Shown here in pieces: positions 6,001 through 15,000 of a DNA stretch of 39,236 nt. Within the stretch, counting starts at the first letter, position 1. Each line of letters starts with the position of its first letter. The stretch is from an uncultured Planctomycetia bacterium (lineage in GTDB: Bacteria > Omnitrophota > Gorgyraeia > 1-14-0-20-64-10): assembly GCA_964373295.1 (NCBI GenBank), contig CAYJUA010000002.1:1-39236 (forward strand), read 5' to 3'. The position numbers are program-made.

Positions 6001-9000
6001 TTGTGCTGGGACAGAAGGCGACCCTGCGTTATCGTACCGCCGAAGGCCTCTCCCCGCTGATGGACCTCTTTGTAGTGGATGATACCGGAAAGAGGACGGA
6101 CATCGCCAAGGGCGTGCTGATGAAGGAGAATGAGAAGACCAAGGGGCTCTATGAATACTTCCTGGAGGTGAAGAAGGACAAGGGGTTCATCCCGGGCAAG
6201 CCGTTCAACGTCTTCGTGCAGGAGCCCACCACGGGCAACCTGGAGGCGAGCTCCGTCTTCGTGGAGACCACCACCCTGGGTTCCCTGGAGGGGCTGATCG
6301 CCTCGCAGGGAGGCGTGAAGTCCATCGCCCAGGAGACGCTGTCCATGATCCGGAAGGTGAGGCGGGGCATCTCCGATGACGGGCAGCTGCCCCACCTGCT
6401 GGAGATGCTCAAGGTGAAGATGGACGCCATGCCGCGGGCGGTGTCCGAGCAGAGCGGAGCGAGGCAGGTGCAGAACGCGATGAAGGAGACGGCTCGGTTC
6501 ATTCGGCAGCTCGCCGGCGAGCAGACCGGCGTGAGCCTGAGCCAGATGATGTCGCAGAGCGTGCAGAAGGGGCTCGAAGAGGCGCCGACGGTCCAGAAGA
6601 TGCGCAAGGCCGTGGACCAGGTGAAGAACGCCACGGAGATCACCCAGATCCTGATGGAGAAGAAGCTGGGCGGGTTGGATGAGCCGATCGTTCACATGGT
6701 GGTGGAGTAACCCGGAGCCGATGATGAAAAGAGCTGTCTTTATCCTGATGATGTTCGCGCTGGCCGTCCCGGCCTTCGCCGCGCAGAAGGAGAGGGAGCC
6801 GGTGACGTTCAAGATCGTCACGGTGAACCCTTCCGCGGACAAGACGCAGACGGTCCCGGTGAACATCGAACTGCCCAAGGAGGTCACCCCGAAGGACATC
6901 CTGGAGAGGGGGGACCTGGCGGTCGAGTACGACGAGGAGAGGGCCGCCTACTTCGTCCACAAGGACAAGGTGGAGCTGGCCCCCAAGGAGACCCGGATCT
7001 TCGAGGTGGTGGTGCGGGATCTCTGGTGGATCCCACGGGAGAAGGTGGATAACCTGCGGAACTACAAGAACATCGTCCTCGGGCGGCTGAAGGGGACCGA
7101 ATACTTCGAGTCCGGCCAGGAGCTGGGCAAGGGCATCGAGACGCTCCTGGACGGCATCCTGGCGCTCCAGGACGACGAGTCCATCAGCCGGAAGACCCGC
7201 ATCGGCAACTACCGGAGGAACCTGGCAACGCTGGAGCAGGTCAAGGAGGAGCTGACCCGGATGGAGAAGCTGCTGGCCTTCACCGGCGGGCCTCCGGTGC
7301 CGGAGCTGCTGGAGGAGTCTCCGCTGAAGTCGGATGCCCCCTCCAAGACAACGACATGGCTGGTGATCTTCCTGATCCTCATCTTCCTGGGGCTTCTGGC
7401 CGGGCAGTTCTTCTTCACCTGGCACCGGCGGATCCGGAGTGCCCAGGATGCCACCGAGATCCGGGAGACCGCCTTCTCCCTGCTGCGCAAACCCAAGCAC
7501 GGGCAGGGGGGGCCCTCCACCCTACGGGTGGCCGGAAGGCCCTCTTCCGCGGGCTCGGTGGAGAGCGACAAGAAGCCCAATTCTCGGACGGGCGTGTAAC
7601 CTGCCATGCTGGACGTGACGATCCTGACACCCCAGGAGGTTCTGTTCCAGGGCCGGGCCGTCCGGGTGATCCTACCGGGGGAGATGGGGACGTTCGAGGT
7701 GGGTTCGTTCCACCGGCCCCTGGTGAGCCGGCTTCTGCCGGGCATTTTGATTGTGGATGATCAATCGGTCGCCATCCGCCGGGGCGTGGTCAAGGTGGAT
7801 CGGGACCGGGTGACCTCCATTGTGGAGATCGAAACGTGATCCATGGACCGCAACCTTGCACTGACACTGATCTTCTCCCTCTGCATCTTGGGGCCGGCGC
7901 TGGTGATGGCAGCGACTGGCTTCTCGAGCATCGGAGCCCTGGGCCGCAACCCCTCCGCGGCGCCGAAGGTCCTCACCGCGATGGTGATCACGCTGGTCTT
8001 CGCGGAGGCGGTGGCGATTGTCGCTTTCCTCGTCGTCTGGCAGCTCTTCGCCCCATGAGGGAAAGGCGCCCATGTTCATGATCCAGTTGCTGGTCTTCCA
8101 GGTCCTGATTTTCGCGGCCCTCGCCGTGGTGCTGCAGCGTTTCCTCGGCCGGCATGCGACCTCCGCCACCGCCCACCTGCAGGGGCTCACCCAGGACTAC
8201 ATGAAGCGGCAGGAGGAGCTGAAGAAGCGGCTGGAGGAGTCGGAGCGGTACTACAAGGAGCTTGTCGCCAAGGCCCAGACCGAGGGGGTCCAGCTCAAAA
8301 GCGAGGTGGTCCAGCAGGCCGAGGAGAAGAAGCGTCAGATGGTGGAGGAGGCGCGGGGCGAGGCGGAGCGGATCGTGAACCAGGCCGTCCAGGCCCGGGA
8401 GGCGATGCGCCGGGAGCTGGAGTCCTCCGTGGAGAAGCGGGCCGTGGAGCGGGCCTGCGAGCTCTTGGAGCAAGTGCTGCCCAAGGAGATGCAGGAGTCG
8501 GCCCACGGCCGGTGGATGGAGGAGGCGCTGGGCGACGGGCTGCTGCGCCTGAACCGGATGGAGATGCCGGAGAAGGACAAGACCCAGGAGGCGAAGGTGG
8601 TCTCTGCAGCGCCGCTGTCCCCCCCGCAGAGGGAGCGGCTCCTGAAGAAGCTGGAGCAGGCGCTGGGGCATCCCCTCACGCTGAAGGAGGAGGTGGACCC
8701 GCGGATCATCGCGGGGGTGACGATCACCCTGGGCCACGTGGTGCTGGACGGGTCCCTCGTCTCGAAGATCCGGGAGGCGGCGCGCCGTGCTGAAGACAAG
8801 CAAGGCTGACAACCCAAAACCGATACCGGGTACCTCGCAGCTGCGAGAATCGGTACCCGGTACCGAACAGTGGTTCGACATCCGGGAGGTGGGCCGGGTG
8901 ACCTCGGTCCGCGAGTTCATTGTGAAGGTCGAAGGGCTTCCCTCCTGCATCAACGGCCAGCAGGTGGAATTCTCCAATGGGGACAAGGGGATGGTGATGG

Positions 9001-12000: not shown

Positions 12001-15000
12001 CAGAGGTGAGCGATTTCCACGAGAGGATCCGCTCGGTCGAGGGGGGCGGCTCCATCACCTCCATCGAGGCGGTCTACGTGCCGGCCGATGACCTCACCGA
12101 CCTGGCCGTGGTCACGATCTTCACGTACCTGGATTCGATCATGGTCCTCTCCCGCGAGCGGGTGCAGCTGGGCCTCTACCCCTGCATCGACCCCCTGCTC
12201 TCCTCGTCGGGCAACCTGGACCCGGACATCGTTGGCGAGAGGCATTACGCGATCGCCATGGAGGCACTGAAGATCTTTGCCAAGTACGAGGAGCTGCGGC
12301 GGATTGTCTCGGTGGTGGGGATCGACGAGCTCTCGAAGGCCGACCGGACCATGTACGAGCGGGCCCGAAAGCTGCAGAACTTCCTCACCCAGCCCTTCAC
12401 CGTCGCGGAGGTCTTCTCCGGGATGAAGGGGCAGTACGTGACGGTGGAGAAGACGCTGGAGGGGTGCGACCGGATCATCGCCGGCCGCGTGGACGCCTGG
12501 CCCGAGGAGCGCTTCTACATGATCGGAGACCTGCCATGGGAGTGACGGGAGGGAAGCGGCTCGGGGAGCTGCTGGTGGAGAAGGGGCTCGTTACGGAGCC
12601 GCAGATGGCGGAAGCGCTCGAGCAGCAGAAGCAGGACGGCCGGTTCCTGGGGACGATCCTCCTGGAGCGGGGATGGGTGGGCCCCACCCGGCTCATGGAG
12701 GTGCTCGCGGAGCACTACCGGATGCCGTTCGTCCGGCTGGAGGAGACCGCCGTGGACCCGGCGGTCGTATCCAAGGTCCCCGTGAAGGTGGCCCTCCATT
12801 ACCAGGTGATGCCGGTCAAGATCCACAACTCCACGCTCACCGTCGCCATCTCCAACCCCCAGGACGTGCGGACGCTGGACGAGCTGCGGCTAGCCCTGCA
12901 GCAGAAGTACACCCTGGACCCGGTGCTGGCCACGCCGGAGGACATCCTCCGCGCGATCAAGGAGAGCTACGGCGTGGGTGCCGAGATGATCAGCCGGATC
13001 CTGACCGACCGAGGCCTGCCTCCGCTTCCAGCCGGGGCGCCGGAGGAGACGCTGGAGGACATCGCGGAGCTCGCCAGCGATGCCTCGGTGGTGAAGCTGG
13101 TGAACCAGCTGATCCTCGAGGCGCACAGCCGGCGGGCCACGGACGTGCACCTGGAGCCGTACCGCGGGAAGGTGCGGCTGCGCTACCGGGTGGACGGGAT
13201 CCTGCACGACGCCGAGGCGCCTCACGCGATCCGGCAGCTGTTCCTGGCCATCATCTCCCGGATCAAGGTCCTCTCCAACCTCAACATCGTGGAGCGGCGG
13301 CTCCCGCAGGACGGCCGCGCCAGCGTGAAGGTGGGAGACCAGAAGATCGATTTGCGCATCTCAATCCTGCCGACGCCGCATGGGGAGAGCGTCGTGATCC
13401 GCATCCTCCCCAACCAGATGCTGTTGGACCTGAAGGACCTGGGCTTCTCCAAGGAGGACATGAAGCTCCTGGACGCCGTGATCCGCAAGCCGTACGGGCT
13501 CGTCTTCGTGACCGGCCCCACGGGCTCGGGCAAGACCACCACCCTGTACGCGATGCTCAAGGCGATCAACTCCATCGAGAGGAAGATCATCACCATGGAG
13601 GACCCCATCGAGTACGAGCTGGAGGGGATCGCCCAGGTGCAGGTGAACCCCCCCATCGGGCTCACCTTCGCCGCGGGCCTGCGGAGCATGCTCCGGCACG
13701 ACCCCAACGTGATGATGGTGGGGGAGGTGCGCGACGTGGAGACGGCGGAGCTGGCCATCCGGATCGCCCTCACCGGCCACATGGTCCTCTCCACCCTGCA
13801 CACCAACGACGCCATCGGCGGCGTAACCCGCCTCATCGACATGGGGATCGACCCGTTCCTCATCGTCTCGTCGCTGGAGTGCATCATCGCCCAGCGCCTG
13901 GTGCGCCTGCTTTGCCCCTCCTGCAAGGAGGAGGCGCCCGCCGGCTCCATGGGTGGGAAGAAGGGATACCGGGCCAAGGGGTGCAAGCAGTGCAACAACA
14001 CCGGGTTCCGGGGACGCACGGCGATCTACGAGCTTTTCCTCCTGTCCCAGCTGCTCCGGGAGCTGATCCTCAAGCGGGTTTCGGCGGATGCGCTGCGCCG
14101 CGCGGCGGTCGAGCTGGGGATGAAGACGATGCGGGAGGACGGGCTGCAGAAAGTGGAGCAGGGCCTGACGACGTTGGACGAGGTCCTGCGGGTCACGCAG
14201 GACGAGAAGTGAGGGGCGGCCGATGCCAAAGTTCTCCTACGTGGCCAAGCGCAGCCCGACCGAGAGCGTGGAGGGGGTCCTTGAGGGGAACAGCCGGGCC
14301 GACGTGATCAGCCAGCTGGCCGGCATGGGCTACACGCCGGTCCGGGTCGTCGAGGAAGCGATAGGCGCCGCCCCCGGTGCCGGCCGCGACCGAGCCCGGG
14401 TACCCACCGGAAGGTGGGTGGGCGAAGGAAGTGCCGGGAGCCCGGCAGGGCGAGCGGCCGCCTCCTCCCCCCTGCGGCGCGACGTCCGCGTGCCGGTCCG
14501 GCACCTGAACCAGTGCACGCGCCAGTTCGCGTCCCTGGTCCGCTCGCAGGTGCCGATCCTCCGGTGCCTCGCGATCCTCGGGGAGCAGACGGCGCACGCC
14601 CGCCTGCGCAGGATCCTCTCCGGCATCGAGGAGGACATCCGGCAGGGGCACACCCTCACCGAGGCGCTCGCCAAGTACCCACGGGTCTTCTCGCCGCTCT
14701 TCACCAGCTTGGTCCACTCCGGCGAGGTGGGCGGGGTGCTGGACGCGGTGCTGGACCGCCTGGCCGCCCAGGCGGATAAGGAGGAGGGGCTGCGCTCCAA
14801 GGTGCAGACGGCGCTGGCCTACCCCGCCTTCGTGGGCCTGGTGGGGGTGGGCACGGTGGTCTTCCTCTTCACGTTCGTCATCCCCCGGTTGATGAAGCTC
14901 TTCACCTTCTTCGGGGAAAACCTCCCGCTGCCCACCCGGCTCCTTCTGGGCCTCACGGATGGGCTCGCGAGGGGCTGGTACTGGTGGGCAGGAGGGCTGG

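What a model noticed while it worked through the whole genome (the two positions that open the first line are those of the whole stretch)
6724..12545. Pilus-linked F-type ATPase keeps c ring and b-delta stator but no subunit a
The second F-type ATPase operon that runs into pilB/pilC is not a Mycoplasma-like bare F1. It encodes its own two-helix subunit c with the ion-binding Glu, a b-delta fusion, a short epsilon, alpha, gamma and beta, but never subunit a, and it occurs in many genomes that have no F-type subunit a anywhere. This points to an a-less rotary module whose c ring works with the pilus or secretion platform.
Evidence so far: Gene order here: g00100 (conserved single-pass protein), epsilon 77 aa, c, b-delta 245 aa, alpha, gamma, beta, pilB, pilC. 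27 loci from relatives: none holds subunit a; c found in 26, Glu kept in 23 of 26; beta followed by pilB within three genes in 26 (one contig ends). The divergent c is in 70 of 120 genomes of at least 95% completeness; 29 of those 70 have no PF00119 match, including genomes in 6 and 8 contigs. Walker A motifs intact in alpha and beta.
(Added by a program. Inside this text positions count along the whole contig: contig position 1 is position 1 of the stretch shown here. "Call 12" and the like, gene names such as g00115 and contig names such as C1 are that model's own, and its searches are not shown. The text may have been shortened before it was handed on; [...] marks where a part breaks off. 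The agent that wrote the report below was given it as the finding of a first reader that could run no searches.)

Follow-up and report, generated by a model that had tools for sequence, protein, structure and literature searches.

The report
Channel-less rotary ATPase inside secretion operon
Omnitrophota bacteria carry a second ATP-synthase-like gene set that keeps the membrane rotor ring and stalk but encodes no ion-channel subunit and sits inside a type II secretion-like operon beside a giant surface protein, so it likely burns ATP to do mechanical work rather than making ATP.

Summary
Confirmed. Window 6724-12545 encodes g00100, epsilon, c (Glu55), a b-delta fusion, alpha, gamma and beta, packed into gspE-gspF, with no subunit a. 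In 56 loci no a and no recurring multi-pass gene appears. 50 of 133 genomes with this ATPase have no PF00119 match, including single-contig G129, where an exhaustive profile search of 92% of the contig also found none. Catalytic residues are invariant; the c loop that docks on gamma is nearly invariant, but the ion-binding Glu is gone in 10 of 55 loci, with no link to whether the genome has an a.

Corrections: the partner is T2SS-like (GspG, GspK), not a PilB/PilC pilus; short epsilon is phylum-wide; alpha and beta group stably with N-ATPases, not Mycoplasma. g00100 is fused to the giant upstream protein in 9 loci and is likely its membrane anchor. Listeria lmo0086-0093 has a parallel design.

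Best reading: an ion-uncoupled, ATP-driven rotor serving the secretion/giant-adhesin machine; the coupling is inferred. The locus was published from alpha/beta only (Seymour 2023); I found no paper on the a-less composition. This scan found it before on other DNA (41 findings).

The parts
27..6710 (+). Giant repeat protein (Ig-like repeats, helical C-terminal part), cut by the contig start; likely surface adhesin
   Evidence: 2227 aa ORF, Kre9_KNH Ig-like hits; a relative lies upstream in most loci; 10 N at 1681-1690
6724..7599 (+). g00100: signal-like N-terminus, beta-sandwich, three-helix bundle, one conserved transmembrane helix; likely membrane anchor of the giant protein
   Evidence: AlphaFold pLDDT 85; fused to the giant protein in 9 of 39 giant ORFs by pattern; co-occurs with divergent gamma in 125 of 141 genomes
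7606..7839 (+). epsilon, beta-sandwich domain only
   Evidence: PF02823 1e-12; moved between gspE and gspF in 6 of 56 loci
7843..8058 (+). subunit c, two helices, R35-N36-P37 loop, Glu55
   Evidence: PF00137 over cut-off; alignment of 61 copies; PDB c subunits
8072..8809 (+). b-delta fusion of N-ATPase type (one TM helix, long helix 2-135, C-terminal half of delta)
   Evidence: TIGR03321 residues 8-224, PF00213, model pLDDT 92, PDB b, delta and b-delta
8787..10316 (+). F1 alpha with Walker A and arginine finger
   Evidence: TIGR00962 537.6 bits over cut-off 484; motif counts
10313..11155 (+). divergent F1 gamma
   Evidence: PF00231 93.5 bits
11133..12545 (+). F1 beta with Walker A Lys, catalytic Glu and Walker B Asp
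   Evidence: TIGR01039 566.8 bits over cut-off 463; motif counts
12542..14212 (+). GspE/PilB-family assembly ATPase with MshEN domain, overlapping the beta stop codon
   Evidence: TIGR02533 565 vs TIGR02538 556 bits, both under cut-off; PF00437, PF05157
14223..15521 (+). GspF/PilC-family platform protein
   Evidence: TIGR02120 334 vs PilC 272 bits; PF00482
15518..15955 (+). GspG major pseudopilin
   Evidence: PF08334 94.7 bits, frame
15894..16980 (+). two minor pseudopilins (GspI- and GspJ-like)
   Evidence: N_methyl motifs
16907..17923 (+). GspK
   Evidence: PF21687 65 bits over cut-off 26; in 47 of 56 loci
17775..20017 (+). GspL/PilM-PilN-like and GspM/PilO-like platform proteins
   Evidence: PF11104, PF05137, PF04350, PF04612
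30363..33710 (+). ExeA-like AAA protein, unassigned single-pass protein (GspC position, inferred) and secretin GspD, probably the rest of the same machine
   Evidence: PF13401, PF00263, PF03958; same three genes follow the cluster in G129

Best explanation
This is an F-type rotary ATPase gene set with its own c subunit and b-delta stalk but no subunit a, and it likely works as an ATP-burning mechanical motor, uncoupled from ion transport, for the type II secretion-like machine and giant surface protein encoded around it. Shown: composition, intact catalytic residues, absence of a, erosion of the ion site, tight and interleaved linkage to gspE-M, fusion of g00100 to the giant protein. From established F1 biochemistry: alpha3beta3 hydrolysing ATP turns gamma-epsilon, which docks on the c-ring loop; without a there is no ion path, so neither synthesis nor pumping. 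Inferred: b-delta, having no a to hold, is anchored by a membrane partner from the operon; the c ring acts as a membrane-embedded wheel passing torque to another; the likeliest pairing is stalk on the secretion platform and ring on the conserved TM helix of g00100, turning, reeling or resetting the giant adhesin (about 0.25 for this exact pairing).
For: No a and no recurring multi-pass gene in 56 loci. 50 of 133 genomes with divergent gamma lack PF00119, among them genomes in 1, 6, 8 and 9 contigs. In single-contig G129 the only F-type alpha/beta are this pair, besides V-type A/B and Rho; an unfiltered a-profile that finds N-type and Mycoplasma a at E<=3.3e-12 finds nothing better than E 0.49 in 1,824,200 of 1,974,201 bases; 94 of 109 multi-TM ORFs fall in other Pfam families and 21 unassigned, weakly assigned or border-spanning ones score under 2% by hhalign against a, versus 98% for controls. 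Beta Lys, Glu, Asp 54 of 54 and alpha Arg finger 55 of 55. c loop R35 58 of 61, P37 61 of 61, but Glu 47 of 61; no c copy has Glu in 10 of 55 loci (V, M, G, S, A, Q), against 19 of 19 canonical Omnitrophota c. Glu is kept in 10 of 11 loci from a-less genomes and 24 of 28 from a-bearing genomes, so it does not track a. Epsilon sits between gspE and gspF in 6 loci. g00100 TM helix mean pairwise identity 0.45, like c helix 2 (0.47) and above b-delta, GspL and GspM helices (0.29, 0.23, 0.24), and it has no conserved charge. Listeria second operon shows the same design independently.
Against: Glu is kept in 45 of 55 loci and 119 of the 120 nearest c homologues, which a purely mechanical ring does not obviously need. 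The a-profile does not see V-type subunit I, a true structural counterpart of a (hhalign 0.23%), and PF01496 itself missed the I gene of G129, so a stator as divergent as that would be missed. The last 150 kb of G129 were covered only by filtered family searches. 83 of 133 genomes, including this one, do have a canonical a. Single-contig G126 has the ATPase and secretion genes but no g00100 match, so g00100 is not an obligatory rotor partner; 16 of 141 genomes lack it. No rotation, activity, expression or contact has been measured.
Confidence: 0.6

Rival explanations
1. The module borrows a stator from the cell's main rotary ATPase (canonical F-type a, or V-type subunit I) and pumps ions near the secretion machine.
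For: 83 of 133 genomes have a canonical a and 40 of the 50 a-less genomes have a PF01496 match at E<=0.001, mostly weak; Glu is mostly kept.
Against: It would need to fit F-type a in some genomes and V-type I in others. PF00119 is single-copy in nearly all genomes that have it. Glu retention does not track a (10 of 11 vs 24 of 28). V-type I binds E-G stalks, not a membrane-anchored b (passage).
Confidence: 0.1
2. An unrecognised membrane protein (a very divergent a, or GspF or another platform protein) forms an ion path with the c ring, so the enzyme is an ATP-driven ion pump, or an ion-driven helper, dedicated to secretion.
For: Glu kept in 45 of 55 loci; N-ATPase relatives are ion pumps (Dibrova 2010); profile methods miss V-type I.
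Against: No recurring multi-pass gene in the loci apart from GspF and c; no conserved Arg in the TM helices of g00100 or the two GspF helices examined; 10 loci manage without Glu, several with aliphatic residues; the Na+ ligand positions are not kept (one search compared with N-type and Fusobacterium c).
Confidence: 0.14
3. The c ring is not a torque-delivering wheel but a membrane anchor or gated pore: F1 idles or tugs on it to open a lumen, extract pilins or release the anchored giant protein.
For: Helix 1 has bulkier residues where canonical c has small ones, compatible with a wider ring; second divergent c copies in 6 loci; T3SS ATPase and stalk are homologous to F1 and b (passage).
Against: Gamma is kept and fills the F1 pore, so no substrate threading through F1; ring size was not modelled; nothing shows a pore.
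Confidence: 0.1
4. A decaying or merely co-located N-ATPase remnant without a role in secretion.
For: Gene order epsilon-c-b-alpha-gamma resembles the N-ATPase order with atpQ, atpR and atpB removed; long stem branch.
Against: Invariant catalytic residues, intact frames and linkage in 54 of 54 assessable loci, presence across classes, interleaving with gspE/gspF.
Confidence: 0.04

Closest known systems
[quoted passage not shown] 2023, PMC10066038; passages and supplement search seen)
   Same: Same locus type: divergent F-type alpha/beta next to type IV filament genes across the phylum, called non-respiratory.
   Different: The passages seen treat only alpha and beta and liken them to Mycoplasma type 2/3; they do not mention c, b-delta, loss of a, loss of Glu, g00100 or the giant gene, and call the partner a type-4a pilus, whereas GspG and GspK mark it as T2SS-like.
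N-ATPase, atpDCQRBEFAG (Dibrova et al. 2010, PMC2881411; first third of the text seen)
   Same: Second copy beside a main ATPase; no separate delta, b extended by the C-terminal half of delta; order epsilon...c-b-alpha-gamma; alpha and beta group with N-ATPases against canonical enzymes.
   Different: No atpB, atpQ or atpR; beta last; c lacks the Na+ ligand set and sometimes Glu; embedded in a secretion operon.
Mycoplasma type 2/3 F1-like ATPases, F1-likeX0 (Beven et al. 2012, PMC3369863; passages seen)
   Same: F1 repurposed without subunit a and linked to surface machinery (MIB-MIP genes beside type 3 clusters).
   Different: They have no homologue of a, b or c; this system keeps c and b-delta. 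Tree grouping with them is unstable (joined, apart); NF045863/NF045858/NF045936/NF045934 scores are far under cut-off.
Listeria monocytogenes second ATP-synthase-like operon lmo0086-lmo0094 (gene table in PMC13082608, passages seen; locus L137)
   Same: Two large membrane-anchored proteins (1959 and 769 aa), then a c without the Glu, a b-delta-like fusion (348 aa), alpha, gamma, beta, epsilon; no a.
   Different: No T2SS genes, unrelated large proteins, a 4-TM gene downstream; alpha and beta branch apart from the Omnitrophota clade, so likely convergent. Function not established in what I read.

Membership tests
Canonical F1Fo ATP synthase | alpha, beta with catalytic residues, gamma, epsilon | tested here: met
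Canonical F1Fo ATP synthase | subunit a with essential Arg | tested here: not met
   absent from the operon in 56 loci and undetected in 50 of 133 genomes
Canonical F1Fo ATP synthase | separate b and full-length delta | tested here: not met
   single 245 aa fusion with only the C-terminal delta domain
Canonical F1Fo ATP synthase | invariant ion-binding carboxylate in c | tested here: inconclusive
   present in this window; absent in 10 of 55 loci
N-ATPase | b extended by a delta-like C-terminal segment, no atpH | tested here: met
N-ATPase | atpQ, atpR and atpB in atpDCQRBEFAG | tested here: not met
   no such genes between epsilon and c
N-ATPase | c with Na+ ligand set (Glu in both helices) | tested here: not met
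   helix-1 position is Ile/Phe/Met, residue after Glu is mostly Ala versus N-type c
N-ATPase | alpha/beta inside the N-ATPase clade | tested here: inconclusive
   sister to, not within, 5 N-ATPase references; quick trees only, unrooted or poorly rooted
Mycoplasma type 2/3 F1-likeX0 | no homologues of a, b, c; proteins 1, 2, 5 instead | tested here: not met
   c and b-delta present; definition from passages
Mycoplasma type 2/3 F1-likeX0 | alpha/beta in the type 2/3 clade | tested here: inconclusive
   unstable placement of two type 3 references; no type 2 reference in hand
Omnitrophota 'symbiotic' F-type ATPase (Seymour 2023) | divergent monophyletic alpha/beta within 10 kb of type IV filament genes | tested here: met
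   one clade, beta support 100; adjacent to gspE in 54 of 56 loci
Type II secretion system (downstream cluster) | GspE, F, G, minor pseudopilins, GspK, L, M, secretin D | tested here: met
   Pfam hits; GspE and GspF NCBIfam scores best but under cut-off
Type IVa pilus (downstream cluster) | major pilin PilA and retraction ATPase PilT in the cluster | tested here: inconclusive
   none seen in the window cluster; PilT-like matches exist elsewhere in the genome; no system-level phylogeny run
Any rotary ATPase | c oligomer that rotates with gamma on ATP hydrolysis | not testable with these tools
   needs biochemistry or cryo-EM

The most novel reading that the evidence does not exclude
A third use of the F-type architecture: a complete rotor (F1, gamma-epsilon, c ring) and N-type stalk with no ion channel, working as an ATP-driven membrane turbine that spins or reels a giant, membrane-anchored adhesin through a T2SS-like conduit during host attachment, with the same solution reached independently in Listeria.
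Probability: 0.3. Interest if true: 0.9.

Novelty: new variant of a known kind. Interest (0 to 1): 0.66.

Why it matters
Subunit a and the c-ring carboxylate are regarded as inseparable from Fo. A conserved lineage that keeps c and the stalk, drops a and in places drops the Glu would be an intermediate between ion-pumping N-ATPases and the Fo-less Mycoplasma motors, and would bear on the proposed link between rotary ATPases and protein export. It also changes metabolic readings of Omnitrophota: alpha/beta counts without gamma at strict thresholds (125 vs 30 of 176 genomes, passage) probably reflect this divergent enzyme, which should not be scored as respiratory. The Listeria parallel offers a culturable system in which the design can be studied.

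Tried and rejected
Complex prediction (c x3, b-delta N-terminus x2, g00100 C-terminal part) was not available; nothing was folded, so there is no verdict on contacts. Fold searches with the g00100 model gave no Foldseek match at E<=0.001 and only generic three-helix bundles (best Z 10.1, 80 residues aligned, rmsd 1.9; the beta-sandwich was barely tested); the ESM Atlas gave only unnamed Omnitrophota clusters. The weak TIGR01131 hits in G129 and G098 lie in a 467 aa multi-pass transporter-like ORF (read as ArsB/NhaD-like from recall), and that in G122 is full of stops. Careful trees did not finish; quick trees are reported; 30 or 14 of 56 loci and 12 of 20 canonical Omnitrophota operons were used. 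'Short epsilon as a sign of an unbraked ATPase' was rejected because canonical operons of the phylum share it. 'Mycoplasma-related' was not stable. No RNA holder listed for the operon. Promoter and terminator scans gave chance levels. The c-profile search of 1.84 billion representatives and of the 90% database gave no usable range outside Omnitrophota: named hits were Omnitrophota apart from one labelled Deltaproteobacteria and one 'bacterium'; two loci carry Planctomycetia record titles, not checked. Supplements of PMC12583861 held no ATP synthase rows. Paper searches that found no description of the a-less composition: (open-licence library only; one Seymour supplement file was cut when stored, and bioRxiv supplements were not seen). 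Passages of PMC4154653 and bioRxiv 2026.10.01.756066 (zero mentions of Omnitrophota or Listeria) did not describe it; West-Roberts 2023 links other, larger giant genes to T2SS-like loci, and the passages shown did not include an F-type ATPase.

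
Full report
Observation. The region 6724-12545 holds seven abutting or overlapping genes: g00100, epsilon, c, b-delta, alpha, gamma, beta. Gaps from the upstream giant gene through gspG run from -23 to +13 bases, so no a gene can hide in the operon. The genome has a separate canonical operon with a, c, b, delta and alpha on C46 and beta and epsilon on C135. Related loci carry Omnitrophota record titles in 10 of 15 cases.

Neighbourhood. Downstream genes are GspE, GspF, GspG (PF08334), two minor pseudopilins, GspK (PF21687), GspL/PilMN-like and GspM/PilO-like, with an ExeA-like protein and a secretin 10 kb further on. 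GspE and GspF models score above PilB and PilC models, though under their cut-offs. This is a T2SS-like member of the type IV filament superfamily. In 56 loci (15, 40 that I chose on long contigs, and the window), a GspE-family gene is the next annotated gene after beta in 54, the other two being cut by contig ends; GspK is seen in 47; epsilon lies between gspE and gspF in 6. ORFs filling the gaps form no recurring multi-pass family: they are response-regulator-like proteins, a second type of giant repeat protein, transposase-like ORFs and single cases.

Absence of subunit a. A gamma profile matched 133 of 251 phylum genomes at E<=1e-40; 50 of these have no PF00119 match and 46 of the 50 have the divergent c. 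Whole families show the pattern (f20: gamma 7 of 7, a 0 of 7). In single-contig G129 the PF00006 matches are this alpha and beta, a V-type A/B pair and Rho (V-type operon seen). An unfiltered profile of subunit a found N-type a at E<=9e-43 and Mycoplasma a at E<=3.3e-12 but nothing better than E 0.49 in 1,824,200 of 1,974,201 bases. Of 112 multi-TM ORFs of 130-420 aa, 109 were scanned and 94 belong to other Pfam families; the 15 unassigned, 3 weakly assigned and 3 border-spanning ORFs scored under 2% against a, controls 98%. Limits: the last 150 kb were covered only by filtered searches; the profile does not see V-type subunit I; PF01496 matched 40 of the 50 a-less genomes, mostly weakly, and missed the I gene of G129.

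What is conserved. Beta keeps the Walker A Lys, catalytic Glu and Walker B Asp in 54 of 54 and alpha the arginine finger in 55 of 55. In 61 c copies the loop is nearly fixed (R35 58, N36 56, P37 61) while Glu55 is present in 47. Ten of 55 loci have no Glu-bearing c, with Val, Met, Gly, Ser, Ala or Gln instead; 19 of 19 canonical Omnitrophota c detected keep it. Five of the Glu-less loci that were in the tree fall in one subclade mixed with Glu-bearing members, so these are few independent losses. Glu is kept in 10 of 11 loci from a-less genomes and 24 of 28 from a-bearing ones, which gives no sign of a shared a. Against a purely mechanical role, Glu is kept in 119 of the 120 nearest homologues. 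Short epsilon is a phylum trait (78-119 aa in canonical operons).

g00100. The model shows a beta-sandwich, a three-helix bundle and a long C-terminal helix holding the TM segment, with no specific structural match. It is fused to the C-terminus of the giant protein in 9 of 39 giant ORFs by pattern, and many genome matches lie in frames of thousands of residues, so it is likely the giant protein's membrane anchor. It co-occurs with divergent gamma (E<=1e-29): both 125, gamma only 16, g00100 only 5, neither 105 of 251 (kin are not independent). In G129 the giant and g00100 genes lie at the far end of the same cluster. Its TM helix is about twice as conserved as the GspL and GspM helices and carries no charge, suggesting a specific intramembrane contact. 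Single-contig G126 lacks a match, so the tie to the T2SS genes is firmer than the tie to g00100.

Origin. The b-delta fusion matches the N-ATPase b model along most of its length and has the form described for N-ATPases (passage; model). Alpha and beta each form one clade apart from canonical Omnitrophota enzymes. With long branches removed both lie on the N-ATPase side of the split from canonical enzymes (support 100 and 99, simple model); alpha groups with N-ATPases at 89-93 under the mixture model, while the beta tree with all references leaves the sister open. Mycoplasma type 3 joins the clade in one alpha tree and leaves it in another. All are quick trees. The simplest history, inferred, is an N-ATPase-like operon that lost atpQ, atpR and atpB.

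A parallel. A Listeria monocytogenes record has a second operon with 1959 and 769 aa membrane-anchored proteins, a c without the Glu, a 348 aa b-delta-like protein, alpha, gamma, beta, epsilon and no a, matching lmo0086-0094 in a published gene table. It branches separately, so the design probably arose twice.

Mechanism. Shown: parts list, catalytic integrity, no a, eroding ion site, linkage. From established knowledge of F1Fo: ATP hydrolysis turns gamma-epsilon and the attached c ring, and ion flow needs a. Inferred: the stalk is held by an operon membrane protein and the ring delivers torque to another, serving export, positioning or movement of the giant adhesin (0.6 overall; about 0.25 for ring-g00100 with stalk-platform). 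Rivals are an unrecognised ion-conducting stator (0.14), a borrowed a or I (0.10), an anchor or gated pore (0.10) and decay (0.04).

Known versus new. Seymour et al. 2023 reported the locus from alpha and beta and proposed attachment and motility on hosts. In the searches listed I found no paper describing the retained c and b-delta, the missing a, the Glu losses, the g00100-giant fusion or the Listeria parallel. This scan has noted the a-less operon before: 41 findings in at least 34 genomes hold the search words. Verdict: real, a new variant of a known locus type, interest 0.66.

Noticed in passing
window 8817-8866 and about 14383-14465: Short GC-rich repeats with hairpin potential sit in frame inside alpha (N-terminus) and gspF; near-identical copies occur on 2 and 11 other contigs, like in-frame palindromic insertion elements.
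   Followed up: partly
L137 (Listeria record, 5338-19481): Second ATPase operon with Glu-less c, b-delta-like fusion, no a, two large membrane-anchored proteins upstream and a 4-TM gene downstream.
   Followed up: partly
L062, L063, L069, L080, L084, L011: Two tandem c genes, the second strongly divergent with a changed loop and often no Glu, suggesting mixed rings; five of these loci have the order alpha-epsilon-c-c-b-delta-gamma-beta and most show a different giant repeat protein.
   Followed up: partly
P0241, P0242: Four-helix tandem fusions of the divergent c (138-140 aa), both halves with Glu.
   Followed up: no
L046-L050, L055, L057, L059, L064, L068, L085: A roughly 300 aa response-regulator-like gene sits directly before epsilon or c; a TPR/peptidase-MA gene moves between positions inside the operon; L066 g00100 ends in a GGDEF-like domain (read from the sequence); small MshEN-like genes precede gspE: hints of c-di-GMP control.
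   Followed up: no
L067 and L071: Sensor-like membrane proteins (895 and 624 aa) inserted between gamma and beta.
   Followed up: no
L220 (G129 V-type operon): Omnitrophota V-type subunit I (about 590 aa) is so divergent that PF01496 barely or not at all detects it.
   Followed up: partly
G129 655619-666239 (L172-L173): A second giant gene plus g00100 pair without ATPase or T2SS genes next to it.
   Followed up: no
window 20297-27024: Cluster of histidine kinases and response regulators inserted between gspM and the ExeA-secretin genes.
   Followed up: no
L103-L122: Canonical Omnitrophota F-type epsilon subunits are also short (78-119 aa), mostly too short for the inhibitory helices.
   Followed up: partly
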